A DNA stretch of 64,000 nucleotides from an uncultured Smithella sp. GTDB lineage: Bacteria; Desulfobacterota; Syntrophia; Syntrophales; Smithellaceae. The notes beneath the pieces are model-generated. The model was not told the origin of the DNA and searched no databases. It saw nothing but the letters and a program-made list of their open reading frames with translations. Each line of letters begins with the position of its first letter. Within the stretch, counting starts at the first letter, position 1. The stretch is from assembly GCA_964469905.1 (NCBI GenBank), contig CAYXZW010000001.1, forward strand, positions 134,783-198,782. Reading direction: 5' to 3'. Both the position numbers and the translations under genes were made by a program. Positions 10,034-55,120 of the stretch are shown here, one piece after another.

Positions 10034-12409
10034 TCATTTCTCGTTACGATCCCTTATGCCGTTTACGATTTCCATGTTGCCGTTATTGTTGGACAACGGC
10101 TTAGAATCTTTCTGCATTTGATCGGGGTAATCAATCCGCTGATGAAATATTCCATTGAGTATTCTGGTAAAAGTTTCCGCAATAGTATTTAAGTTCTGAA
10201 GTGTCAACTCACAATCATCAAGTTGTCCGTCGGTATAAATTCGTTCAATTCTTTCTCGCACCAAAGAACGAATTCTGGAAGGAGTAGGATTAGAAAGAGT
10301 GCGCGACGAAGCCTCGACTACATCTCCGAGCATAACAAGTCCTGCTTCTTTTGTCTGCGGTTTCGGGCCGGGATAACGAAAATCGCTTTCAGACAAGGAA
10401 CGGATTGATTCGTCTTTATCCTTTTTTGCCTTATCATAAAAGTAACTGACAATACTGGTACCATGACTTTCACGGATGATGTTGATAATATTTCTTCCTA
10501 ATTTTGCCTCCTCCGCCAGTTCGCAGCCATCTTTGACATGAGAAATAATTATACGACTGCTCATTTTAGGGGATAGTTTGTCATGCTTATTTTCATTTTT
10601 CGGTTGATTTTCAATGAAATAGTGGGGCTTTTTGAGCTTCCCGATATCATGATAATAGGCGCTGACTTTAGCCAGAATGGAATTCGCGCCAATAGCTTCA
10701 CTTGCTGCTTCCACAAGAGAAGCAACAATAATACTGTGGTGATAAGTTCCCGGTGCTTCGATAATCATTTTCTGGAAAATCGGTTGATTAAGATTAGCCA
10801 GTTCTAATAGTTTAATGTCCGTCATAAAACCAAAAATGCTTTCGAATATAGGTGTAATTCCGGCAACGAAAATACCTGTTAAGATACCTCCGGCAAATCC
10901 AGCTCCAAGGCGCCAGAATAAATCAGTAAGAGGATTCCCCGATAATAGATTTAAACAAATAATTGCCGCCATATTAACTATACCCAGAAATACTCCCACT
11001 TTCAGGAAGGCAGATCGATGGCGGCTGTTGACAATTCGATAAGAAGCGGCAACTGAGCCTAAAAAAGAATATAAAGGATAGATAATTTTTCCATCATAGA
11101 GAAAACCAATTAAAAAGGATGAAAGCACGCCGATTATGAGAGCAACATTCCGGTTGATCAGGATGGCCATTATCATCGCTCCCATAGCAAATGGAATGGC
11201 AAAATAACAGGCTTCTACGGAGATAAAAGGAAAAGCCCTGTTTACGGCACTGGATATGAAAATTCCCATTTTAACGAAGATCATCTGCAAAATTATAATT
11301 AAACCGAATACAATCAGATCAACATTGGAGGCATGGGATGATTTAAGCCAGTTTCTTGTGCGCCAGAAATAAAGCACCAGACAGAGAAATAATGATATAA
11401 AGAATATACCGATAATCATGGCAATGCCGGAAAATCTATTATCGCCGGTAGCTTTATAGAAGGCATTTAACTTGGATAGCTCCAGTTGATTTATTTTTTC
11501 TCCCTCGCGAACAATCATTTCGTCTCTTTGAACTTGAAAAAAAACAGGCTTGACATCTTCTATTGCGAGAGCTTTTTTCTTTTCAGTCGCTTCTTTGTTG
11601 AATGTAAGATTGGGTTCGGATATTTTCTTGCAGATAGAGAATATAACTCGCCTCAGACTGTCCTCTTCTTTGGCAAAGTAGATATTTACTTTTTTCCTCA
11701 GTGCAGGATCGATATCTTTCGTATTAATTACCTGGCTAATGTCTCTGAGCTCTCCTTCAGTGCGCGTTTCGAGATTAATCAGAGTAATGCCTTTATCGAT
11801 CTCTTCTTTGCTGAAAGCAGCATTCGTAATATATCTGTTTTCGTAAAAGGAATTAATTAAACGGCTGATTTTCTGATGTAATTCTTTAGAATCCTTGTAG
11901 TCGATTAAAGTATTAAATTCTGCAGGACTCAATGAAAAACCGAACTTAGCTTCTAAGAGTATTTTTGCCCTCTGTCCTTCATTAACATTGATTAAGAGGT
12001 GTTCCGCCGGTTTCTCCTGAGAAAGGTTGCGGCGTAATTCAGATAGGGAATTAAAACCATTAAGCAATTTTGTTTTAATGTTAGTGACCGCGTTAATATC
12101 ATAATCATAGACGGATTTGATATTCTTTCCGGCATCAATCTGCTTTTGTTTTGTTGATTCTCCGTCTTCAACCAGAAATTCACGATCCGCTTTGATATCC
12201 CTGGAACTGATCATTCCTATTTTATATTTCGGCGTTAGTAAGTGAATTTCCGGAGCCAGAATAATTGATAGAATAAGGCAAAGGCCAATAGCAATAAACC
12301 AGCGCTGATAAACTGGATTATTAAGAATGCCAATGGAAAGAAGATGCTTCTCTATAAATATTTTTAATATATTAGAAGCTTTTTTAGCTATAGAATCAAT
12401 ATAATCCAT
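10034..12409 (-). CDS. 7TM-HD membrane phosphohydrolase (PgpH-like HDIG protein)
   Basis: 791 aa: an N-terminal extracytoplasmic region, about 7 TM helices, and a C-terminal HD domain (HHSIIVASL...YYHDIGK). It sits between phoH and ybeY, as in the phoH-yqfF-ybeY arrangement of many bacteria. Confidence 0.85.
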   Translation of the reverse strand: MDYIDSIAKKASNILKIFIEKHLLSIGILNNPVYQRWFIAIGLCLILSIILAPEIHLLTPKYKIGMISSRDIKADREFLVEDGESTKQKQIDAGKNIKSVYDYDINAVTNIKTKLLNGFNSLSELRRNLSQEKPAEHLLINVNEGQRAKILLEAKFGFSLSPAEFNTLIDYKDSKELHQKISRLINSFYENRYITNAAFSKEEIDKGITLINLETRTEGELRDISQVINTKDIDPALRKKVNIYFAKEEDSLRRVIFSICKKISEPNLTFNKEATEKKKALAIEDVKPVFFQVQRDEMIVREGEKINQLELSKLNAFYKATGDNRFSGIAMIIGIFFISLFLCLVLYFWRTRNWLKSSHASNVDLIVFGLIIILQMIFVKMGIFISSAVNRAFPFISVEACYFAIPFAMGAMIMAILINRNVALIIGVLSSFLIGFLYDGKIIYPLYSFLGSVAASYRIVNSRHRSAFLKVGVFLGIVNMAAIICLNLLSGNPLTDLFWRLGAGFAGGILTGIFVAGITPIFESIFGFMTDIKLLELANLNQPIFQKMIIEAPGTYHHSIIVASLVEAASEAIGANSILAKVSAYYHDIGKLKKPHYFIENQPKNENKHDKLSPKMSSRIIISHVKDGCELAEEAKLGRNIINIIRESHGTSIVSYFYDKAKKDKDESIRSLSESDFRYPGPKPQTKEAGLVMLGDVVEASSRTLSNPTPSRIRSLVRERIERIYTDGQLDDCELTLQNLNTIAETFTRILNGIFHQRIDYPDQMQKDSKPLSNNNGNMEIVNGIRDRNEK

Positions 12410-12411
12410 AT

Positions 12412-13449
12412 TTATCCATTGTGGTTATTTCTTTTAGCCTTATCCAGAGGGGCGTATGCTTTAATAATATCCTGCACCAACGGATGACGGACAACATCAA
12501 TATCAGAAAAATGAACAAAGCGAATGCGGTCTATTTTTCTTAAGATATTCTCAGCTTCGATTAAACCGGATTTTTTCTCCTGAGGTAAGTCAACCTGAGT
12601 AACATCTCCAGTAACAATAGCCTTGGATCCATACCCCAATCGTGTTAGAAACATTTTCATCTGTTCTGATGTAGTGTTTTGTGCTTCATCCAGGATGACA
12701 AAAGAATCGTTAAGTGTTCGCCCCCGCATGAACGCCAAAGGAGCTACCTCGATCAAGCCCTTGCTTATTAAAGCAGTTGCCCGCTCCATATCAACCATAT
12801 CATAAAGAGCATCATAGAGCGGACGCAAATAAGGATTAACTTTTTCGGCTAAATCACCGGGTAAAAACCCCAGCTTTTCACCTGCTTCCACAGCGGGACG
12901 TGCCAGGATAATCCTTTGAACTTTCTTTTCCAGCAGAAAGGATACTGCCATTGCCATCGCCAGATATGTTTTTCCCGTTCCGGCCGGACCAATGGCAAAT
13001 ACCATGTCATAATTTCTCATGTATTCGATATAAAGCCTCTGGGCAATGCTCTTGGGTGTTATTATCCTTTTCTTAGAAGATATGAATACAGTATCGAGGA
13101 ATATTCGGGACAACTCAAATGTTATATCTTCGGAAAGAATGCGGTGAGCATAGTCAATATCGGATAGATGAATGTGCCAGCCTTTTTCCATTATGGAATA
13201 AAGCTGTTGTAACAATGTAATAATTTTTTTAGCGTTTTTTTCCGGCCCGGAAACAGAGATATGATTTCCCCAGGCTTTTACCGAAACTGGTTCCAACTTC
13301 TGGATAAGTTTTAAATGCTTATCGCTTTCGCCACAGAGATTTTTCAGCAAATCGTGGTTCGAAAAGGAAAGCTTCTCTGTGAATAATGTTTTAGTTGTAT
13401 GCTTCAAAAGGTTATCTGCCTCTAACTTTAAAATATGGTTTACGTGCAT
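12412..13449 (-). CDS. phoH: PhoH-like ATPase (YbeZ)
   Basis: 345 aa with Walker A GPAGTGKTYLA and Walker B VILDEAQN. Its stop lies 2 nt before the next gene's start. Confidence 0.9.
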   Translation of the reverse strand: MHVNHILKLEADNLLKHTTKTLFTEKLSFSNHDLLKNLCGESDKHLKLIQKLEPVSVKAWGNHISVSGPEKNAKKIITLLQQLYSIMEKGWHIHLSDIDYAHRILSEDITFELSRIFLDTVFISSKKRIITPKSIAQRLYIEYMRNYDMVFAIGPAGTGKTYLAMAMAVSFLLEKKVQRIILARPAVEAGEKLGFLPGDLAEKVNPYLRPLYDALYDMVDMERATALISKGLIEVAPLAFMRGRTLNDSFVILDEAQNTTSEQMKMFLTRLGYGSKAIVTGDVTQVDLPQEKKSGLIEAENILRKIDRIRFVHFSDIDVVRHPLVQDIIKAYAPLDKAKRNNHNG

Positions 13450-40227: not shown

Positions 40228-42057
40228 CTATGAAACGCTTTTGAAATCCTCTACTGGCGGCTGTTTGGGTAAAGCATCACCGATCAGGGCATCGATTTCC
40301 GCCCCGTTTAACACTTCCTTCTCCAGAAGTTCATTAGCTATTTTGTGCAGTATATCAATATTTCCATTTAATAGTTCTTTTGCTTTCTCATAATTACCCA
40401 TTACTAAGGTCTGAACTTCGATGTCGATAGTTCTTGCAGTTTCTTCGCTGTAATCCTTATGGGTTGCAAATTCCCTACCCAGGAATATTTGTTCTTCTTT
40501 TTTTCCATAGCTTAAAGGCCCCAACTTCTTGCTCATTCCCCATTCACAAACCATTTTTCGGGCAAGATTGGTCGCCCGCTCTATATCATTGCCCGCACCT
40601 GTTGTGAAATCATGCAGGACTATTTCTTCCGCAGCCCGCCCGCCTAAAAGGATTGTGATGTTATTGTCTAAATATTGTCGGGGATAAGTATGCTTTTCGT
40701 CTATAGGCAATTGCTGGGTTAAGCCCAAAGCTCTTCCTCTTGGTATAATCGTCACTTTATGAATAGGATCGGTGCCCAGCATCAAACGGGCAACCAGAGC
40801 GTGTCCAGTTTCATGGTAAGCCGTATTGCGCTTTTCCAGATCACTTATGACCATAGTCCTTCTTTCGGTACCCATTAATATTTTATCTTTAGCAAATTCA
40901 AAATCGCTCATATTGACTTTGTCTTTATTTACACGGGCAGCACAAAGAACAGCTTCATTAACCAGATTTTCAATATCTGCTCCTGATGTTCCGGGTGTTC
41001 CTCTGGCCAGCACGGCAAAATCAACATCCTCGGCAATGGGAGCTTTACGCGAATGCACCTCAAAAATCATTTCCCGCCCTTTAACATCCGGCAGAGGTAC
41101 AATGACCTGGCGATCAAACCTTCCGGGGCGCAAAAGCGCAGGATCAAGAACATCGGGACGGTTTGTCGCCGAAATGAGGATCACTCCTTCATTGGATTCA
41201 AATCCATCCATTTCCACCAGTAATTGATTGAGTGTTTGTTCTCTTTCATCATGGCCGCCGCCTAAGCCCGCTCCGCGATGCCGGCCTACTGCATCTATTT
41301 CATCGATAAAAATAATGCAGGGCGCATTTTTTTTTGCCTGGCCAAATAAGTCGCGGACACGCGATGCTCCAACACCGACAAACATTTCCACAAAATCAGA
41401 ACCGCTGATACTCAAAAAGGGGACATCAGCTTCGCCGGCAATTGCACGTGCCAGAAGAGTTTTACCGGTTCCTGGAGGACCGACCAGCAATAAACCTTTG
41501 GGAATTCTTCCACCGAGTTTAGTGTATTTTTTGGGATCTTTTAAAAAATCAATAACTTCTTCCAATTCGGCCTTCGCTTCATCGATACCGGCAACATCGG
41601 CAAAAGTTACTTTTTTTGATTTATCAGTAATTAAACGTGCCCTGCTTTTTCCGAAAGCCATTGCTTTACCGCCACCGGACTGCATCTGACGCATAAAGAA
41701 AATCCAGACACCGATAAGTAAAAGCATCGGAAACCAGGAAACGAGAAGAGTCATGTACCAGGGAGATTCTTCCGGCGGCCTGGCTGTAATTTTTACGCCT
41801 TTTTCCCGAAACTGGGTGACAACTTTATCATCTTTGGGTGCATATGTTTTAAAAATGTTACCATTGGTCAATTTTCCGGTTATGTTTTCACCTTGTATTG
41901 TTACTTCGCTGATCTCATTTTTTTCCAGAGATAACAGCATTTCACTATAGATTATATCCTTTTGCGAATTTTTAGGCTGATTAAAAAGCTGCCAGACCAG
42001 TAAAAATACCAGTAGGACAGTTAGTGCAAGAGCGATGTTTTTTTGAAGCTGGTTCAA
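40228..42057 (-). CDS. ftsH: ATP-dependent zinc metalloprotease FtsH
   Basis: 609 aa with two TMs, an AAA module ([20 protein letters not shown]) and the HEXXH motif in [10 protein letters not shown]. Confidence 0.95.
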
Positions 42058-42115
42058 GATTATTCTCCTTAAAGTGATTACGTTAAAAAACCTTTATAAT
42101 AATATCTAATTAATC

Positions 42116-43489
42116 TCAAATAATTTCTAGCTCCAGCACATTTTTTGTTTCCGGGGTAATTTTCACCTGTTCGTTCATATGCATATTTTCTATCCAGATT
42201 ACCGCTTGCTGATCCACCACTAACATAATTTCACCCCGTTTTTGTTGAGTAATTTTATGATCAATAAAGAATGACTTAAGCTTTTTCCTTCCGGCCATAC
42301 CCAGCGGCTGAAACCAGTCCCCTTCCCTGCGATTTCGCAAAACCAGGGGAAAATGAATTTTATCCAGATCGAAATAATCTTTATTCTTCAAGGTGAAATC
42401 AATCTTATTTTTTTTCACTAACTGGAAACGGACGTTTAAATTTCTTTGTGCAAGATATACCGTGCCCGGGATTTCAACCGGATATAGATATTCCATCTGT
42501 TTTTTGCCTTCTTTGGTTCTCTCCAGAATTATATTTTCATATTCGCGTCTTGCTTCAATTCCAAAAGGAAGACTCAGTTTTTTTCCTGATTCCAGTTTAT
42601 GTAAAAGTTTGCTCAGAGAGTTGACATGTAAAAATGTGATTCCATTTTTCTGTGAACTGAAATTTTCCAGAAGCTCTTTTAGTAACCTGCGTTGAATAGC
42701 CAGCGGCAACATGCATATATACTCTATGTTTAATATAATTTTATTTTTCTGCTTTTTGATACAGGTTGTCTTTAATGCACTATTAACACTTTCCCTGATG
42801 AACTTATTCTCCTCACGCAGAATTTCAGCCATCTGTGCCAGGGCTTCATCAATTTTCGGATTATATTCATTTTTTAAATAGGGCAGAAGCTCCAGACGAA
42901 TTTTATTACGCAGATGAATGTTACTTTCATTCGAGCTGTCCTGACGAAAAGCAATGCCTGATTTATTAAGGAAATGAATTATCTCGTCGCGTGATACATC
43001 AATCAGTGGACGGATATATTTACCGTCACGCAGAGGCGTAATTCCTTTGAGTCCCTCTAAACCGCTGCCTCTCAACAGATGGAGTAATACGGTTTCCGCC
43101 TGATCCTGTAAATTATGTCCCAGGGCAATCTTGCAGGCATGATTACTTTTAGCCACTTCGTCAAAAAACTGATATCTCTGACGGCGGTAAAAATCTTCCG
43201 GGGAAAGCCCCTGCGGCACTGCTGTGTTCTCCATTTTTCGGGAAACAAAAAGCAAGCCTAATTTTTTTGCCAACCTGCTGGCCGAACGTTCGTCTTCATT
43301 AGCTTCGCGGCCCCGCAATCCGTGATTAAAATGAGCAACTACAACTTTTAGACCCATTGATGGAGCTATTTGTGCAAGGGTTACGGTGAGCGCAACAGAA
43401 TCAGGACCGCCGGAGAGTCCTATTACAACTCGCTCGTTTTGTTTTAATAAGTCGTGTTTGATTATAGTTTGTTTTACTTTTTCAATCAT
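42116..43489 (-). CDS. tilS: tRNA(Ile)-lysidine synthase
   Basis: PP-loop SGGPDSVAL and a TilS C-terminal domain. I prefer ATG 43489 (MIEKVK), 2 nt after the upstream TGA. The track start at 43495 is TTG. Confidence 0.85.
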   Translation of the reverse strand: MIEKVKQTIIKHDLLKQNERVVIGLSGGPDSVALTVTLAQIAPSMGLKVVVAHFNHGLRGREANEDERSASRLAKKLGLLFVSRKMENTAVPQGLSPEDFYRRQRYQFFDEVAKSNHACKIALGHNLQDQAETVLLHLLRGSGLEGLKGITPLRDGKYIRPLIDVSRDEIIHFLNKSGIAFRQDSSNESNIHLRNKIRLELLPYLKNEYNPKIDEALAQMAEILREENKFIRESVNSALKTTCIKKQKNKIILNIEYICMLPLAIQRRLLKELLENFSSQKNGITFLHVNSLSKLLHKLESGKKLSLPFGIEARREYENIILERTKEGKKQMEYLYPVEIPGTVYLAQRNLNVRFQLVKKNKIDFTLKNKDYFDLDKIHFPLVLRNRREGDWFQPLGMAGRKKLKSFFIDHKITQQKRGEIMLVVDQQAVIWIENMHMNEQVKITPETKNVLELEII

Positions 43490-43491
43490 AA

Positions 43492-44136
43492 TCAATAAAA
43501 TATTGAACTAATCTCTGAAAGGTTTTCACAATAATAATCTGCAGACGCTGCCAATAAAATTTCTCGCCTTGTCAGGCCATTTAAATACGCGCAACTCAAT
43601 ATTCCTGAGTATTTAGCCAACGTAATATCGTTTATGCCATCACCAACGATAACCGTTTTTCCTTTTTCCATGCCGTATTTCTCTAACAAATAATCCACTA
43701 AACGCTTATCGGGTTTCTTATAGGGTAGTGTACCATCTCCCACTATTTCCACAAAATACTTTTCTATGCCTAAACCCTTACTGATGGCCTGTGTGAAATC
43801 ATACCTCTTATTGGTGAGAATGACCTTCTTTTTATTTTGAAAATATTGCAACAGATCTTCTGCTCCTGGATGTAGCGTAGTATTATCAAGTAGATGTTCG
43901 CTATAGTAGCCGCTGAATATTTTAATCGCCTCCTGATAAAAATGAAGATGATCGGCCCCTAGTGCTCTTTCAATTAATTTTCTTACACCATCGCCGACAA
44001 AGGATATTATTTCTTCTTCCTTTTTGACCCTGAAACCAAACTGTTCCAATGTGTAATTAACTGCAGCGACCAGATCAGTGCCTGTAGAAACCAGTGTGCC
44101 ATCGAAATCAAATATCACGAAATCAATTTCTTTCAT
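43492..44136 (-). CDS. HAD-superfamily phosphatase (phosphoglycolate phosphatase-like)
   Basis: Has the DxDGT motif in FDFDGTLV, plus TNK and GDGINDI. I prefer the start at MKEIDFVIFDFDGT (44136, GGGAGA upstream). An alternative ATG is at 44154. Confidence 0.75.
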   Translation of the reverse strand: MKEIDFVIFDFDGTLVSTGTDLVAAVNYTLEQFGFRVKKEEEIISFVGDGVRKLIERALGADHLHFYQEAIKIFSGYYSEHLLDNTTLHPGAEDLLQYFQNKKKVILTNKRYDFTQAISKGLGIEKYFVEIVGDGTLPYKKPDKRLVDYLLEKYGMEKGKTVIVGDGINDITLAKYSGILSCAYLNGLTRREILLAASADYYCENLSEISSIFY

Positions 44137-44397
44137 CACATCTCCCGTCTCCATTATATCGCCAAGTAATTACTAAATACAAGGCCGTTTATTCTAATGA
44201 AACATACGATTAGACTTTATGGAAATAAACCGTCTGAATATCCGGACAACGTCAAGCCTTTATGGAATAAACTTGTAAGTGATTGGAATATTATGGTAGA
44301 AGATCCTTACACCATAATTAGAATGCGGCTTCCAGATGTGCCGTTGACCGTGCCCCCAGCTTAAAGCAATGATCTCTTAATAGAGGAATTATTCAAA

Positions 44398-46260
44398 ATG
44401 ATTGCCCTACCCGGTTATCAAATCAATCAACTTCTTTATGAGGACAGTACAAGGTTAGTATATCGGGCAACGCGCACTCACGATGATGCGGGCGTCATCA
44501 TCAAGACACTAAGCAAGGAATATCCTTCACCGGTAGATCTGGCAGAATGCAGAAAGGAATATGAAATAACTTCCTCTCTGCAAGGTGAAGGAATTATCCG
44601 GGCTTACGGTCTGGAAAAATTTGATAATCGTCAGGCTTTAATTCTGGAGGATATTGGCGGGGAATCACTGGACAGGCTGCTTGCCGCGCGCCAACTTAAT
44701 CTGCAGGAAGCACTGACACTGGCCATAAAAATTGCAGACATCATCGCGTTGATTCACGAACAGAGAGTAATTCATAGGGATATAAATCCATCAAATATTA
44801 TTTATAATCCGGAGACCGGCCAGGTCCGTATATTTGATTTCAGTCTTTCCACTAAACTATCCAGGGAAAATGTAGAAATCAGCAATCCCGATATGCTGGA
44901 AGGCACATTAGCATATATTTCTCCCGAACAAACAGGACGGATGAACAGGGCCGTTGATTACCGCACTGACATTTATTCTTTCGGTGTGACTTTGTATATG
45001 ATGCTGACAGGTTCTTTGCCTTTTACAGCGAATGATCCGATGGAGCTTATTCATGCCCATATTGCCAGACAACCGCGAGTGCCTCAGGAAATAAATCCAA
45101 TAATCCCGCCTGTTCTTACAAATGTTGTTTTAAAGCTGCTGTCCAAGATGGCCGAAGACCGTTACCAGAGCGCGTCCGGACTTAAATACGATCTGATGAA
45201 TTGCCAGGAACAATTAAACACTGCGGGTACGATAGCGTCATTTGAATTAGGCAGACATGATTTTTCCGACAGATTGCAGATATCCCAAAAACTTTATGGC
45301 CGACAAGCCCAGATAGAAATCTTACTTAAATCATTCGATTCTGTTTGTGACGGTAAGACAGAGTTGCTGCTTGTATCAGGTTATTCCGGTATCGGCAAGA
45401 CGGCGCTCATCAATGAGATCCACAAAAGGATTTCCGGCAAACAGAGTTATTTTATATCAGGCAAGTTCGATCAATATAAACGCGACCTGCCCTATTCCGC
45501 GCTCACTCAGGCGCTGGTTGATTTAATGAGACAGTTGCTGTCCGAGAAAGACGAAACCCTGGAGTTATGGCAGGCCGGTTTCCTGGGTGCATTAGGTACG
45601 AATGCCCGGCTGATGGTAGATATTGTGCCCAATCTGGAGCTGATTATTGGCCGGCAACCGGACGTTCCGGAACTTTCTGCTGAAGAAAGCAAAAATCGTT
45701 TTAATATTGTCTTTCATAATTTTATTAATGTTATTGCCACACGTGACCATCCCCTTGTTATATTTATTGATGACCTGCAATGGGCGGATTCCGCCACACT
45801 GAAACTTTTGGAAATGCTGCTCAGGAATCCGGCAGCGGGACATTTACTTTTTATCGGCGCCTATCGGAATAACGAAGTCACAGACATTCACCCACTGATG
45901 CTGACGGTGGAAGAAATCAGACAATCCGGCGCTACGGTCAACCCGATAGTCCTGAACCCGCTCACCACGGAATATATAGAACAACTGATTGGAGAGACGC
46001 TGAACTGCGATCGGGAAAAGGCACAACCGCTTGCCCTGCTTATTTTCAAAAAAACCGGTGGCAATCCATTCTTTATTAATGAATTCCTGAAGAAGCTTTA
46101 CCGGGATGAAATGATTCTTTTTGATCAAAAACAAGAGGGCTGGATATGGGATGCAAATAGCATTCAACAGATCGATATAACTGATAATGTGGTTTCGTTA
46201 ATAACTGAAAAGATAAATAAACTCCCTTCAAAAGTTCAAAGCACCCTCATGATCGCTTAG
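44398..46260 (+). CDS. N-terminal part of a giant multi-kinase: Ser/Thr protein kinase domain plus AAA_16-type ATPase, ending at an in-frame TAG
   Basis: Kinase motifs are VIIK, HRDINPSNII, DFS and SPEQTGR. P-loop is GYSGIGKTAL and Walker B is FIDDLQWAD. The ORF ends at TAG 46258-46260 but continues in the same frame (see next feature). Confidence 0.85.
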   Translation: MIALPGYQINQLLYEDSTRLVYRATRTHDDAGVIIKTLSKEYPSPVDLAECRKEYEITSSLQGEGIIRAYGLEKFDNRQALILEDIGGESLDRLLAARQLNLQEALTLAIKIADIIALIHEQRVIHRDINPSNIIYNPETGQVRIFDFSLSTKLSRENVEISNPDMLEGTLAYISPEQTGRMNRAVDYRTDIYSFGVTLYMMLTGSLPFTANDPMELIHAHIARQPRVPQEINPIIPPVLTNVVLKLLSKMAEDRYQSASGLKYDLMNCQEQLNTAGTIASFELGRHDFSDRLQISQKLYGRQAQIEILLKSFDSVCDGKTELLLVSGYSGIGKTALINEIHKRISGKQSYFISGKFDQYKRDLPYSALTQALVDLMRQLLSEKDETLELWQAGFLGALGTNARLMVDIVPNLELIIGRQPDVPELSAEESKNRFNIVFHNFINVIATRDHPLVIFIDDLQWADSATLKLLEMLLRNPAAGHLLFIGAYRNNEVTDIHPLMLTVEEIRQSGATVNPIVLNPLTTEYIEQLIGETLNCDREKAQPLALLIFKKTGGNPFFINEFLKKLYRDEMILFDQKQEGWIWDANSIQQIDITDNVVSLITEKINKLPSKVQSTLMIA

Positions 46261-51561
<5,301 letters not shown>

Positions 51562-51576
51562 AAGTGGGGGTGAAAA

Positions 51577-52230
51577 ATGCCGGAGCAGATTCAGAAACAG
51601 ACAGTTCTTATTGTCGATGATGATATTGTTAATATTAAAATACTTGGTTCAGCACTAATATCAGATTATGAAATCCTTTTTGCACTGAGTGCACAAGAAG
51701 GAATTAATAGTGCAATTTCCAATCAACCCGACATTATTCTACTTGACATTTTGATGCCGTTTATGGATGGATATGAGGCCTGCCGAAAATTAAAAGATGA
51801 TGAACGAACCAGGGACATCCCGGTAATCTTCATCACGGCAAAAGACTCTGAAGAAGATGAAGCGAAGGGATTTGATGCCGGCGCTGTTGATTATATTACT
51901 AAACCATTCAGTCTGATTGTTGCAAAGGCAAGGATAAGGACACATATCTCTCTTAATCTTACGAGTCAGGAGTTGGCAAGTAAGAATGTCATGCTTGCCG
52001 CCCGCTTAGAGGAACTGGAGAATGCCCGAAAAGAGATTAAGGACATTGAATCAATTATTCCTATCTGCTCCTATTGCAAAAAGATCCGCGACGATAAAAA
52101 TTACTGGGAACAACTGGAAAGCTATATGTATAAATATTCAGAAATGAAGTTCAGCCACAGCATCTGTCCGGATTGTTATGAAATGCACATCATACCTCAA
52201 TTGTTGCCTGATCGTGTCAAAGGGAAATGA
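51577..52230 (+). CDS. Response regulator: REC, coiled-coil linker, Cys-rich C-terminal domain (CxxC...HxxCxxC), paralog 1
   Basis: 217 aa with an intact REC (IVDDD, LLDILMP, FITAK, ITKPF). The C-terminus is IIPICSYCKKIRDDKNYWEQLESYMYKYSEMKFSHSICPDCYE. GGGGGTG RBS lies 15 nt after the giant kinase stop. Confidence 0.85.
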   Translation: MPEQIQKQTVLIVDDDIVNIKILGSALISDYEILFALSAQEGINSAISNQPDIILLDILMPFMDGYEACRKLKDDERTRDIPVIFITAKDSEEDEAKGFDAGAVDYITKPFSLIVAKARIRTHISLNLTSQELASKNVMLAARLEELENARKEIKDIESIIPICSYCKKIRDDKNYWEQLESYMYKYSEMKFSHSICPDCYEMHIIPQLLPDRVKGK

Positions 52231-52292
52231 ATTAAAACATATGGAATGATTTTAATAACATCGGCTCAAGAAGCAATAAGGAATGACAAACT

Positions 52293-52946
52293 ATGGTTGA
52301 GGATATCCCAACACAAGTGATTCTAATAATAGATGATGCCATTGCCGACATTAAGATTCTTGGATCCACATTACAGTCTAATTATAAAATACTATTTGCC
52401 CTCAATGCCCAGGAAGGAATTACCAGTGCAATTGCCAATCAACCCGATCTTATCCTTCTGGACATAATTATGCCGGGGATGGACGGATATGAGGCCTGCC
52501 GTCAATTACAAACCGATGAAAGAACCAGACACATCCCGATCATCTTTATTACCGCCAAAACCGCTGAGGAAGATGAGATAAAGGGCTTTGCCCTGGGAGC
52601 GTTGGACTATATAACCAAGCCTTTTAACCCCATTATTGTAAAAGCTCGAGTGCGTACTCATATATCGCTCAGACTTGCCACCCTTGATTTGGCAAGAAAG
52701 AATATCATGCTTGCCGCTCGTGTAGAAGAACTGGAGAAAGCCAGAAACGAGATCAAGGCCATTGAGTCAATTATTCCTATCTGTTCATATTGCAAAAAGA
52801 TTCGTGACGATAAAAATTACTGGGATCAGTTGGAAAGCTATCTGCGCAGAAATACGGAACTTAAGTTCAGTCATAGCGTTTGTCCGAGTTGTTACGAACA
52901 GCACGTCATACCTCAAATTTCACCTGTTGTTGGTAAAGAAAAGTAG
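52293..52946 (+). CDS. Response regulator: REC, coiled-coil linker, Cys-rich C-terminal domain, paralog 2
   Basis: 217 aa, colinear with paralog 1 over its full length. The C-terminus is IIPICSYCKKIRDDKNYWDQLESYLRRNTELKFSHSVCPSCYE. AAGGAA RBS is present. Confidence 0.85.
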   Translation: MVEDIPTQVILIIDDAIADIKILGSTLQSNYKILFALNAQEGITSAIANQPDLILLDIIMPGMDGYEACRQLQTDERTRHIPIIFITAKTAEEDEIKGFALGALDYITKPFNPIIVKARVRTHISLRLATLDLARKNIMLAARVEELEKARNEIKAIESIIPICSYCKKIRDDKNYWDQLESYLRRNTELKFSHSVCPSCYEQHVIPQISPVVGKEK

Positions 52947-53006: not shown

Positions 53007-53036
53007 TTGACAAGGCCTGATTTACCTTCCTATACT
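53007..53036 (+). promoter_or_regulatory. Near-consensus sigma70-type promoter inside the track ORF's 5' extension
   Basis: TTGACA (53007-53012), an 18-nt spacer, then TATACT (53031-53036), 37 nt upstream of ATG 53073. Confidence 0.4.
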
Positions 53037-53072
53037 CCAAAAGTACGAAATCGATTGGAGAAGTTACGGCAA

Positions 53073-54917
53073 ATGACTCATAAACACTCTCTTACGAAAT
53101 ATGTCAGCGAGCACTTGGTAGTAGGCGACGGCGCAATGGCCAGTTGGCTTTACCAGAAAGGCATACCCATTGGCTTGTGCTGCGAGGAATTGAACATCTC
53201 CCGACCGGATATCATCCGGGATACCCATCGGGAATACTACGAAGCCGGTGCCCGCCTGATTGAGACCAATACCTTCGGGGCCAACCGTGACGCCCTGTCC
53301 CGTCACGGCCTGGAAGACAGTGTTTACCGCATTAACTGGAAAGCGGCGAATCTGGCCCGGGAAGCGGTAGGCGCAGATGCCTGGGTGATGGGCAGTATGA
53401 CAGCCATCAGCACCGGAAGAGTCCGTCATGAACTTCTGCCGGGACACCGCGAAATGTTCATTGAACAGGCTGAAGCATTGCTCGCCGGGGGTGTCGATGG
53501 TTTAATTCTGGAAACTTTCCTCGATCTGGCAGAACTTCTCCTTGCCCTGACTACCCTGCGCTCCCTCACGAATTTACCGATCATTGCTCAACTGGCTTGT
53601 ATGGAGGTGGGAAAAACCCGTGACGGCTATACAGTCACAGAATCTTTTCGGCAGCTCCTGGATTCCGGGGCAGATATTCTGGGTATCAACTGCCGTCTTG
53701 GTCCCGGCGAAATATTGCGCACAATGGAACAGACTTACGTTCCGGAAGGTACGATTCTTTCCGTTTTTCCCAACGCCGGTCGCCTGGGTATAATAGAAGG
53801 GGAATTCGGCTATACTTCATCGCCCGAATACTTCGCCGATCGCGCTTTGAGTTTCCGCGATCAAGGGGTCAGGATCATCGGCGGCTGTTGCGGCACAACA
53901 CCAGACCATATCCGCGCCGTAGCCTCCACTTTGAGGGAATTGCCTCCCCTGCCCCGTATTAATCCTGAGCATATTCAGGAGCCAGCGCAGATATCAATAA
54001 TGACTGATGTCAGTGTAAGAGGAAAAACAGACACAATTCTGGATAAGGTAAAACGACGTTCAACGGTGCTGGTCGAATTCGACCCGCCGAAAGACCTCGA
54101 CATCGAACAATACATGATTGGTGCAGCCTCTCTGCAGGATGCGGGGGCTGATGCCATCACCATGGCTGATAACTCACTGGCCCAGACGAGGATGAGTAAT
54201 CTGGCCCTGGGAGCCATCGTAAAAATGCGCCTCGGAATCGATCCCCTCGTCCACATCGCCTGCCGGGACCGCAACTTAATTGGCCAGCAGTCCCATCTCA
54301 TGGGACTGCATGCTCTGGGCATTCATAATATCCTTGTTGTCACGGGTGACCCCGCTCGCATCGGCGATCTCCCCGGCGCCAGTTCGGTCTTTGACGTCTC
54401 GTCCTTTGACCTTATCCGCATGGTTAAACAGCTCAATTGCGGCATCTCTTTCTCCGGTCAGTCTCTCCGGGAACATGGACGTTTCGTAGTCGGGGCTGCC
54501 TTCAATCCTCACGTTAACAATTTGGATAATGCTTTAAAACGACTGGAAAGAAAAATAGAGGCGGGTGCAGATTTTATTTTGACTCAACCTGTTTACGATC
54601 AGGCGACAATCGAGATGCTTGCCACAAAGACCCAAAATCTTCCCGTACCAATCTTCATTGGCATTATGCCCATCACCAGCGCCCGCAACGCCGTATTTCT
54701 CCACAACGAAGTGCCTGGAATCAGACTCTCGGAAGAATCTTTGAAACGAATGGCCCAATATCCTGTAGCCGGCCCTGAAGCCAGGAGAGCCGGTCTGGAA
54801 ATTGCCAGGGAACTGGTGGATGTTGCCCGGGTTTACTTCCCGGGACTTTATTTGATGACCCCCTTTGCCTATTACGATATGACTGCAGAGTTGACCAGGT
54901 ACGCCAAGAATAAGTAA
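53073..54917 (+). CDS. Bifunctional homocysteine S-methyltransferase / 5,10-methylenetetrahydrofolate reductase (YitJ-like fusion)
   Basis: The N-terminal Hcy-binding domain has [19 protein letters not shown] and the Zn site [11 protein letters not shown]. The C-terminal MTHFR domain has [21 protein letters not shown] and LTQPVYD. I prefer ATG 53073 over TTG 52968 because of the internal promoter. Confidence 0.85.
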
Positions 54918-55089
54918 CGGAGCACTTATTTGCTGTCCGGTAATTGTAATGAAGTTTGACCAGCACACAACTCCATCGTCTTCAATTATTGTTTGACTAT
55001 ATCCATCGCTTATGCTATCGATTGGCACCGCTTGGATCACTTTATTAGACTGAGACGGCATGTAAAGTTTATTCACCTGTCTTGACCAA

Positions 55090-55120
55090 GGTCTTCCGCG
55101 TGCGGGAGACCTTTTTATTT
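55090..55120 (+). terminator. Strong rho-independent terminator (or attenuator) abutting the next start codon
   Basis: GGTCTTCCG-CGTG-CGGGAGACC forms a 9-bp stem including one G-U pair (55090-55111), followed by TTTTTATTTT. It lies 172 nt after the yitJ-like stop and 9 nt before ATG 55129. Confidence 0.7.

What the first reader, a model, noticed from the sequence alone, without database searches (positions are those of the whole stretch)
44398..52946. Candidate self-contained phosphorelay: Hpt-terminated hybrid multi-kinase feeding two Cys-rich response regulators
The hybrid kinase ends in an Hpt domain (HTVKG). The first response regulator starts 15 nt after its stop, behind a GGGGGTG SD, and the second follows 62 nt later. 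I saw no terminator hairpin between them. The simplest reading is a His-Asp-His-Asp relay from the giant sensor to two near-identical REC-CxxC outputs. The STK/AAA module would add a second input or output layer. If the in-frame TAG at 46258 is real, the histidine-kinase half might be made only by readthrough. That would make relay activity conditional. This last point is speculative.
Basis: inference. Interest (0 to 1): 0.65.

Follow-up and report, generated by a model that had tools for sequence, protein, structure and literature searches.

The report
Conserved kinase–regulator relay, sensor gene broken
This is a conserved three-gene bacterial signalling unit (a giant sensor kinase followed by two regulator genes) whose sensor gene carries a recent stop-codon mutation in this genome; the most interesting part is the regulators' small four-cysteine end domain, which is very widespread but has no family assignment or known function.

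Summary
The observations hold. One 2,388-codon frame (44398-51561) encodes Ser/Thr-kinase-like, AAA_16 NTPase, GAF, PAS, HisKA/HATPase, two REC and an Hpt domain (HTVKG). It has a single in-frame TAG at 46258. Two 217-aa response regulators follow after 15 and 62 nt, with no terminator between them.

Related genomes settle the interpretation. Three other lineages (regulators 92%, 75% and 70% identical) carry the same kinase as one uninterrupted 2,385-2,389-aa gene, followed directly by regulator genes of this kind and, where the contig continues, the same downstream genes. The kinase–regulator linkage is therefore conserved, which supports the phosphorelay reading.

At the TAG position the orthologues have Ser (TCG or TCA). 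The TAG is a single C>A nonsense mutation specific to this lineage. It recurs in independent assemblies, so it is not an assembly error. Nothing indicates recoding or programmed readthrough, and nothing indicates relaxed selection, so the mutation is recent.

The regulators are 71% identical, not near-identical. They are old paralogues under purifying selection.

Their C-terminal C-x2-C…H-x2-C-P-x-C domain matches about 24,000 protein clusters, always in the output position. It has no Pfam, NCBIfam or PDB match. That domain is the real unknown here.

The parts
44398..46257 (+). 5' part of the sensor kinase gene (codons 1-620). Ser/Thr-kinase-like domain about 44455-45174 (HRDINPSN at 44773-44796, DFS at 44836-44844). 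AAA_16/STAND-type NTPase about 45289-45855 (Walker A GYSGIGKT at 45379-45402).
   Evidence: Pfam Pkinase 4e-35 and AAA_16 3e-45. The motif variants are typical of the family. The exact 620-aa product is called in two independent assemblies.
46258..46260 (+). In-frame TAG (codon 621): a lineage-specific nonsense mutation of a Ser codon.
   Evidence: Orthologues have TCG (L171-L173) or TCA (L177) here. Wider homologues have Ala in 115 and Ser in 4 of 119. DNA including the TAG is identical in assemblies of SRR13723393 and SRR13723396.
46261..51561 (+). 3' part of the same gene (codons 622-2387 plus stop).
- TPR-like helical region
- GAF 48430-48858
- PAS 48901-49245
- HisKA 49303-49500 (H-box SHEIRTPMN 49330-49356, His1646)
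- HATPase_c 49639-49998
- REC1 from 50062 (Asp1943 at 50224-50226)
- REC2 50515-50874 (Asp2088 at 50659-50661)
- Hpt 51046-51258 (His2245 in HTVKG, 51130-51144)
   Evidence: Pfam and motif positions. It is collinear with uninterrupted 2,385-2,389-aa orthologues. dN/dS is 0.27 against L171.
51566..51572 (+). Shine-Dalgarno-like GGGGGTG, 4 nt before the RR1 start. In the closest orthologue the same bases lie inside the end of the kinase ORF, which stops 3 nt before the RR start.
51577..52230 (+). Response regulator 1 (217 aa).
- REC: Asp14-16, Asp57, Thr87, Lys109
- Long linker helix about residues 113-158
- C-terminal four-Cys domain, residues about 159-205 (52051-52191): C164-x2-C167 … H194-x2-C197-P-x-C200
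   Evidence: Pfam Response_reg 2e-24. AF2 model. Domain alignment invariants. 92% orthologue P0387.
52293..52946 (+). Response regulator 2 (217 aa), an old paralogue of RR1 with the same architecture. Four-Cys domain at 52767-52907.
   Evidence: 71% identity to RR1. dN/dS 0.12 with saturated dS. It has its own 92% orthologue in L171.
53007..53036 (+). Strong promoter-like site (TTGACA-18-TATACT). It probably marks the start of a separate transcription unit for the next gene.
   Evidence: 11 of 12 matches. Gene callers start the next gene at 53073.
53073..54917 (+). Homocysteine S-methyltransferase/MTHFR fusion gene. It is a conserved downstream neighbour, not a signalling component. The first + strand terminator-like hairpin follows at 55088-55113.
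   Evidence: Pfam, synteny, terminator scan.

Best explanation
The region is a vertically inherited three-gene signalling module. It consists of a ~2,388-aa cytoplasmic hybrid sensor and two paralogous response regulators.

Sensor domain order: Ser/Thr-kinase-like, AAA_16 NTPase, TPR-like, GAF, PAS, HisKA/HATPase, REC, REC, Hpt. Each regulator is a REC domain, a long dimerising helix and a ~45-residue four-Cys (probably Zn-binding) output domain.

Inferred mechanism:
1. Signals integrated by the N-terminal modules control autophosphorylation at His1646.
2. The phosphoryl group passes to an internal receiver Asp (Asp1943 or Asp2088).
3. It then passes to Hpt His2245.
4. It finally reaches Asp57 of RR1 and RR2.
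5. Phosphorylation changes the geometry of the coiled-coil dimer, and with it the two C-terminal four-Cys domains. These act on a target that is not encoded next to them.

In this genome the sensor gene has suffered a recent C>A nonsense mutation (Ser621 TCG to TAG). At best, the cell makes a 620-aa N-terminal fragment, and possibly a re-initiated fragment of about 1,730-1,756 aa running from the TPR-like region to Hpt. The full-length sensor is not made.

Shown: domain content, residues, gene order, conservation of the module, the nature and reality of the TAG, and purifying selection.
Inferred: operon transcription, phosphotransfer route and partners, metal binding, and output mechanism.
For: - Domains and catalytic residues are present.
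- The kinase-RR1 junction is tight and carries an SD. No terminator is seen before 55088.
- Orthologous loci in three other lineages have an intact 2,385-2,389-aa kinase followed by REC-CxxC regulator genes and, where the contig continues, the same downstream genes. The tandem pair is visible in two of these lineages.
- Orthologues have Ser (TCG/TCA) at the TAG position.
- Amino-acid changes are equal on the window and sister branches (25 vs 32 before the TAG, 92 vs 90 after). dN/dS is 0.26 and 0.27 in the two halves.
- The TAG is reproduced with 100% identical DNA in assemblies of two separate runs.
- RR1 and RR2 each have a 92% orthologue, and dN/dS between them is 0.12.
- Independent REC-CxxC genes elsewhere follow Hpt-terminated hybrid kinases: L007 and L044, 13 of 51 metagenome loci (Pfam 13 of 43), and L168 and L170.
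- The four-Cys domain always follows sensor or receiver domains. It has invariant C, C, W, Y, F, H, C, P, C.
Against: - There are no expression or phosphotransfer data.
- Enrichment of Hpt neighbours for REC-CxxC genes over the closest REC-only relatives is modest and not significant (13/51 vs 9/75, odds ratio 2.5, p = 0.06).
- With the sensor truncated, the relay may be dead or run by cross-talk in this organism.
- Metal binding and the fold of the output domain are not established. AF2 pLDDT is about 71, and Foldseek against the PDB gives nothing below E = 2.
- The Ser/Thr-kinase-like domain has a degenerate Gly-rich loop and an HRDIN catalytic loop, so it may not be an active kinase.
Confidence: 0.72

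Rival explanations
1. The module is dead in this genome. The nonsense codon, through loss of the full-length protein and transcriptional polarity over 5.3 kb, abolishes sensor function. The two regulators are then orphaned, silent, or served only by cross-talk from other Hpt proteins.
For: - The TAG lies in a conserved helix just after the NTPase domain, not at a domain boundary.
- No convincing SD precedes the next in-frame starts, TTG 46291 and ATG 46366.
- TAG-T is a strong termination context (established knowledge).
Against: - No second disabling mutation occurs in 2,388 codons, and no rate acceleration is seen. This is equally expected if the mutation is very recent.
- Bacterial re-initiation after nonsense codons is common (established knowledge).
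- The regulators are intact.
Confidence: 0.4
2. Programmed recoding: the TAG is read through or decoded (pyrrolysine or a suppressor tRNA), so that the histidine-kinase half is made conditionally.
For: - The frame stays open for 1,766 codons after the TAG, and both halves show purifying selection.
- The TAG is real in independent assemblies.
Against: - Orthologues encode Ser with TCG or TCA, so the TAG is not conserved.
- TAG ends 9 of 41 long ORFs in the window, including ftsH, the kinase gene itself and RR2.
- There is no downstream structure (z +1.44).
- No tRNA-Pyl or suppressor tRNA is found in the window.
- The position is a small buried residue in the family: Ala in 115 and Ser in 4 of 119 homologues.
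Confidence: 0.04
3. The regulators are not the kinase's partners. Adjacency reflects shared ancestry of the locus, and the Hpt domain feeds other regulators.
For: - Phosphotransfer is untested.
- Most REC-CxxC genes elsewhere (about 70%) are not next to an Hpt protein.
- The closest REC relatives pair similar hybrid kinases with other outputs: HD-GYP, GGDEF, or REC alone.
Against: - The kinase–regulator arrangement persists across lineages whose kinases are only 57-80% identical, while the upstream neighbours change.
- In the closest orthologue only 3 nt separate the kinase stop from the regulator start, which implies coupling.
Confidence: 0.1

Closest known systems
Multi-step His-Asp-His-Asp phosphorelays with unorthodox or hybrid kinases (ArcB, BarA, TorS, EvgS type)
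   Same: The HisKA-HATPase-REC-Hpt order is shared, with a separate cognate response regulator encoded next to the kinase. The best NCBIfam similarities of the C-terminal half are to BarA, TorS and ArcB.
   Different: All scores fall far below those families' cut-offs, so this is not an orthologue of any of them. It has two tandem REC domains before Hpt, no membrane sensor, and a 1,300-aa STK/NTPase/TPR/GAF N-terminal half. It has two paralogous regulators, whose output domain is not DNA-binding.
Cyanobacterial 'dual protein kinases' (HstK, Pkn40/41; cbSTKIII), which NCBI names 'trifunctional serine/threonine-protein kinase/ATP-binding protein/sensor histidine kinase'
   Same: It shares an N-terminal Ser/Thr-kinase-like domain, an AAA_16 NTPase, a GAF domain in between and a C-terminal histidine kinase. 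Identity is 43-48% over 1,007 aa to many such proteins. The family is described in PMC2176072. The HKDINPSNI-type catalytic loop and degenerate Gly loop are shared.
   Different: This gene comes from a deltaproteobacterial lineage and is extended by REC-REC-Hpt. It is coupled to dedicated regulators, and in this genome it is interrupted by a nonsense codon.
REC-GGDEF (PleD/WspR) and REC-HD-GYP (RpfG) response regulators
   Same: The REC domain and linker helix of RR1 and RR2 are most similar to these (PleD 7e-36 in NCBIfam; PleD structures 3e-34). The closest REC relatives in genomes carry GGDEF or HD-GYP outputs behind similar hybrid kinases.
   Different: The output domain is replaced by a ~45-residue four-Cys module with no similarity to any nucleotide cyclase or phosphodiesterase.
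Small Zn-binding modules (zinc ribbon or treble-clef type, such as the Nmd3 N-terminal Zn domain or the C4 finger of DNA polymerase delta)
   Same: It has two CxxC pairs about 29 residues apart, and the second pair lies at the start of a helix in the AF2 model.
   Different: Matches are only sub-threshold: zf-C4pol E 0.015-0.03, Rua1_C 0.002, Foldseek Nmd3 E = 2. It also has an invariant His, Trp, Tyr and Phe and a basic CKKIR stretch. Homology is not established.

Membership tests
Multi-step phosphorelay (hybrid HK + Hpt + cognate RR) | HisKA H-box histidine and an HATPase_c catalytic domain | tested here: met
   HisKA 1e-19 and HATPase_c 3e-29. SHEIRTPMN at 49330-49356.
Multi-step phosphorelay (hybrid HK + Hpt + cognate RR) | Internal receiver domain with a phospho-acceptor Asp | tested here: met
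   Two Response_reg stretches. FMDWKMP and FMDIQMP carry the Asp, and both domains keep the conserved Lys. REC1 appears to lack the conserved Thr/Ser, read from the sequence.
Multi-step phosphorelay (hybrid HK + Hpt + cognate RR) | Hpt domain with the HxxKG histidine | tested here: met
   Pfam Hpt 5e-9. HTVKG at 51130-51144.
Multi-step phosphorelay (hybrid HK + Hpt + cognate RR) | Terminal response regulator with a complete receiver active site, genetically linked to the kinase | tested here: met
   RR1 and RR2 have the DD pair, Asp57, Thr87 and Lys109. The linkage is conserved in three other lineages.
Multi-step phosphorelay (hybrid HK + Hpt + cognate RR) | Demonstrated phosphotransfer His to Asp to His to Asp | not testable with these tools
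   Needs biochemistry.
HstK-type dual/trifunctional kinases | N-terminal Ser/Thr-kinase domain, AAA_16 NTPase, GAF, and C-terminal histidine kinase in one polypeptide | tested here: met
   Pfam. 43-48% identity over 1,007 aa to many such proteins. The definition is in PMC2176072. In this genome the polypeptide is cut by the TAG; the orthologues are intact.
HstK-type dual/trifunctional kinases | Active Ser/Thr kinase (Gly-rich loop, VAIK Lys, HRDxK, DFG) | tested here: inconclusive
   The Lys, the catalytic Asp and the SPE motif are present. The Gly-rich loop is degenerate, the catalytic loop is HRDIN and DFG is DFS. These are the same variants found across the family.
Programmed UAG recoding (pyrrolysine or readthrough) | The TAG is conserved at the site in orthologues | tested here: not met
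   TCG or TCA (Ser) in four orthologous genes.
Programmed UAG recoding (pyrrolysine or readthrough) | Stimulatory downstream RNA structure, or scarcity of TAG as a stop codon | tested here: not met
   z +1.44. TAG ends 9 of 41 long ORFs.
Known response-regulator output families (Pfam, NCBIfam) | Significant match of the C-terminal region to a curated model | tested here: not met
   Nothing reaches a gathering score in Pfam. NCBIfam gives no match. PDB sequences give a best E of 0.03.
Zinc-ribbon or treble-clef metal-binding modules | Two CxxC knuckles forming one tetrahedral site | tested here: inconclusive
   Four invariant Cys plus an invariant His. The AF2 model is of moderate confidence. 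There is no significant structural neighbour. Metal content cannot be tested here.

The most novel reading that the evidence does not exclude
The ~45-residue C-x2-C…F-x-H-x2-C-P-x-C module on RR1 and RR2 may be a major, so far undescribed output domain of bacterial signal transduction. It matches about 24,000 protein clusters at 50% identity. It sits behind REC, PAS, HAMP, 7TM, MASE6 and beta-propeller sensors. Its mode of action would be new, for example a coiled-coil-positioned Zn (or redox/Fe-S) finger that binds nucleic acid or a core cellular machine. This conserved kinase plus two-regulator module would be a tractable entry point. The two co-inherited paralogues might even work as a heterodimer.
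Probability: 0.4. Interest if true: 0.7.

Novelty: new variant of a known kind. Interest (0 to 1): 0.42.

Why it matters
As a phosphorelay, this is standard two-component logic and would not surprise a specialist. Three things give it some value.

1. It is a clean natural example of an HstK-type Ser/Thr-kinase/NTPase sensor fused to a full HK-REC-REC-Hpt transmitter with dedicated regulators. This gives that poorly understood kinase family a defined downstream pathway to test.
2. The regulators' output domain belongs to a very large family with no Pfam, NCBIfam or PDB assignment. I found no description of it in the searchable literature. Learning what it does would annotate tens of thousands of signalling proteins.
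3. The nonsense allele, next to intact orthologues at 80% identity, is a natural loss-of-function comparison.

Tried and rejected
- **Pyrrolysine or readthrough.** Rejected on orthologue codons, TAG usage, sequence context and folding.
- **Sequencing or assembly error.** Rejected. The DNA is identical in assemblies of separate runs.
- **Natural gene split.** Rejected. The break is in a conserved helix just after the NTPase domain, and the orthologues are single genes.
- **Genome-contig scan with RR1.** It returned almost only REC-only relatives. Only L007 and L044 carry the four-Cys domain. I reused the rest as a control set.
- **First kinase homologue search.** It listed nothing closer than 48% identity and nothing longer than 1,763 aa, so it missed the 80% orthologues. 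These were found later through the regulator.
- **Family and fold assignment of the four-Cys domain.** Pfam at E ≤ 10, NCBIfam, PDB sequence search and Foldseek against the PDB gave no significant hit.
- **Literature.** Searches by motif (CKKIR…), by 'zinc ribbon/output domain', by 'cysteine-rich/CXXC response regulator' and by SRA run numbers found nothing relevant. The halobacterial HalOD2 and TackOD1 Cys-rich outputs in PMC5847659 have a different spacing and distribution.
- **Recurrent target gene next to REC-CxxC genes.** None found. Downstream neighbours are heterogeneous.
- **Association with the STK/AAA half elsewhere.** Absent outside this clade.
Full report
**1. Observation**

Positions 44398-51561 form a single reading frame of 2,388 codons. 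Its only internal stop is TAG at 46258-46260, codon 621.

Pfam places the domains as follows:
- before the TAG: Pkinase (residues 20-259) and AAA_16 (298-486);
- after the TAG: GAF, PAS, HisKA, HATPase_c, two Response_reg domains and an Hpt domain. The Hpt domain contains HTVKG at 51130-51144.

The kinase stop is followed after 15 nt by the ATG of a 217-aa response regulator, RR1 (51577-52230). GGGGGTG sits at 51566-51572. A second 217-aa regulator, RR2 (52293-52946), starts 62 nt after RR1 ends.

No terminator-like hairpin lies on the + strand between 51561 and 55088. The 62-nt spacer folds no better than shuffled sequence.

The one overstatement is 'near-identical'. The regulators are 71% identical in protein and 73% in DNA.

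**2. The TAG**

- *Wider homologues.* Among 119 homologues of the NTPase/TPR region, the aligned residue is Ala in 115 and Ser in 4.
- *True orthologues.* A full-length RR1 search found regulators of 92%, 75%/72% and 70% identity. Their contigs carry one uninterrupted gene of 2,385-2,389 aa with the same Pfam architecture, followed directly by the regulator genes. These are L171-L174, including HGW-Deltaproteobacteria-10 (GCA_002840605.1); a 125-kb ENA contig; and L177. At the window's TAG these genes have TCG (80% identical protein) or TCA (57% identical), both Ser. The TAG is therefore one C>A change specific to this lineage.
- *Not an assembly artefact.* The exact 620-aa product, and DNA 100% identical over 41460-49260, occur in assemblies of two separate sequencing runs.
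- *Not recoding.* TAG terminates 9 of 41 long ORFs in the window, including ftsH, the kinase gene itself and RR2. The base after the TAG is T. The 120 nt downstream are less structured than shuffled sequence (z +1.44). No unusual tRNA is present.
- *Recent.* With L177 as outgroup, amino-acid changes on the window branch equal those on the sister branch (25 vs 32 before the TAG, 92 vs 90 after). dN/dS is 0.26 and 0.27 in the two halves. No other lesion occurs in 2,388 codons.

Whether a TPR-to-Hpt fragment of about 1,730-1,756 aa is re-initiated is unknown. The candidate starts are TTG 46291 and ATG 46366, and neither has a good SD.

**3. Linkage of kinase and regulators**

The module of kinase plus regulators is conserved in three further lineages, and two of them show the regulator pair; in the third (L177) the contig ends after the first regulator. 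Where the contig continues, the module is followed by the same S-methyltransferase/MTHFR, KARI-like, PanB and SurA genes. The upstream neighbours differ (patatin, radical-SAM genes; HAD/TilS/FtsH here).

In the closest orthologue the kinase ORF ends 3 nt before the regulator ATG, and the SD-like GGGGGT lies inside the kinase ORF.

RR1 and RR2 each have their own 92% orthologue. Between the two paralogues dN/dS is 0.12 and synonymous sites are saturated. The duplication is therefore old, and both copies are maintained.

Beyond this clade I used a profile of the C-terminal domain to fetch 80 metagenome loci, plus two genome loci:
- Of 51 REC-CxxC genes with at least 600 nt upstream, 13 are directly preceded by an Hpt domain and 17 have one within 6 kb on the same strand. 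Pfam confirms Hpt in 13 of 43 upstream neighbours.
- Typical partners are HK-REC-REC-Hpt proteins (L007, L085, L086, L114, L148). L168 and L170 are similar.
- None of these partners has the STK/AAA half.
- Against a control of the 75 closest REC-only relatives (9 with Hpt directly upstream), the enrichment is modest: odds ratio 2.5, p = 0.06. Those relatives themselves often follow similar hybrid kinases, but carry HD-GYP, GGDEF or no output.

The conclusion is that the kinase–regulator pairing here is conserved and plausible as a relay. The general association is with the HK-REC-(REC)-Hpt transmitter, not with the multi-kinase architecture.

**4. The sensor**

The N-terminal 1,300 aa belong to the family known from cyanobacteria as dual protein kinases (HstK, Pkn40/41; PMC2176072). 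NCBI names them 'trifunctional serine/threonine-protein kinase/ATP-binding protein/sensor histidine kinase'.

The odd kinase motifs are family-typical: a degenerate Gly-rich loop, HRDINPSN and DFS. Catalytic competence of this domain is therefore open.

The C-terminal half has a canonical H-box, HATPase_c, two receivers with their Asp, and Hpt.

**5. The regulators' output domain**

After REC, the AF2 model shows one long helix (residues 113-158) and then a small beta-alpha-alpha-beta-alpha unit (pLDDT 73). The domain modelled alone has pLDDT 71.

Alignment gives an invariant pattern: P-I-C-x2-C … W … Y … F-x-H-x2-C-P-x-C, with a basic CKKIR stretch.

It has no match in Pfam (even at E ≤ 10), NCBIfam, PDB sequences or Foldseek against the PDB. 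Yet a profile search of 1.84 billion representative proteins finds 23,998 proteins at E ≤ 1e-3 and 19,401 at E ≤ 1e-10.

The domain is always C-terminal to sensor or receiver modules. Examples are REC, REC-PAS, HAMP-PAS, 7TM-PAS, MASE6 and Reg_prop/Y_Y_Y. It is sometimes duplicated, and once it is followed by PilZ.

Neighbouring genes show no recurrent target.

I infer a dimeric, coiled-coil-positioned, probably Zn-binding output module acting on a non-adjacent target. Its function is unknown. I found no description of it in the searchable literature, but I cannot exclude one elsewhere.

**6. Verdict**

The readthrough idea is not supported.

The object is a new variant of a known kind: an ordinary His-Asp-His-Asp relay with an HstK-type sensor and regulators bearing an unassigned output domain. 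In this genome it carries a fresh nonsense allele.

Interest is moderate. It rests mainly on the unassigned but very widespread output domain.

Noticed in passing
window 52051-52191 and 52767-52907; proteins P0241-P0386: The four-Cys domain family is very large: 23,998 representative proteins at E ≤ 1e-3. It includes proteins of about 520-550 aa with two copies (some with MASE6), a REC-CxxC-PilZ protein (P0289) and a 1,405-aa Reg_prop/Y_Y_Y protein (P0246). No curated family covers it.
   Followed up: partly
window 53007-53073: The mechanical ORF of the S-methyltransferase/MTHFR fusion starts at TTG 52968. However, a near-consensus promoter (TTGACA-18-TATACT) lies inside it, and gene callers start the protein at ATG 53073. 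This gene probably has its own promoter and is not part of the signalling operon.
   Followed up: partly
window 49260-49329: Short-read assemblies of two runs break their contigs exactly in front of the HisKA H-box (contigs end at 49260 and restart at 49329). This suggests the conserved H-box sequence is repeated among many kinase paralogues in this genome.
   Followed up: no
window 44197-44364: A 55-aa ORF is called by gene finders between the divergent HAD-hydrolase gene and the kinase start. It has no Pfam match and may be spurious or a leader peptide.
   Followed up: partly
output: The word-indexed homologue search returned no protein longer than 1,763 aa. It missed the 2,385-2,389-aa orthologues (80% identity) that exist in public assemblies. 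Negative results from that tool for very long proteins should be treated with care.
   Followed up: yes
L167, L168 and other metagenome loci: Several REC-CxxC genes sit next to ftsK (3 of 47 downstream neighbours) or ribosomal protein L19 (3 of 43 upstream). In L168 one is followed by a REC-GGDEF gene. These are possible lineage-specific conserved contexts.
   Followed up: no
window 10034-12424 (- strand): A 7TM receptor with an intracellular HD hydrolase (7TMR-HDED/7TM-7TMR_HD/HD) is another signalling protein in the window. The rest of the window is housekeeping: Lon, DnaE, aspartokinase, M16 and M20 peptidases, FtsH, TilS.
   Followed up: no
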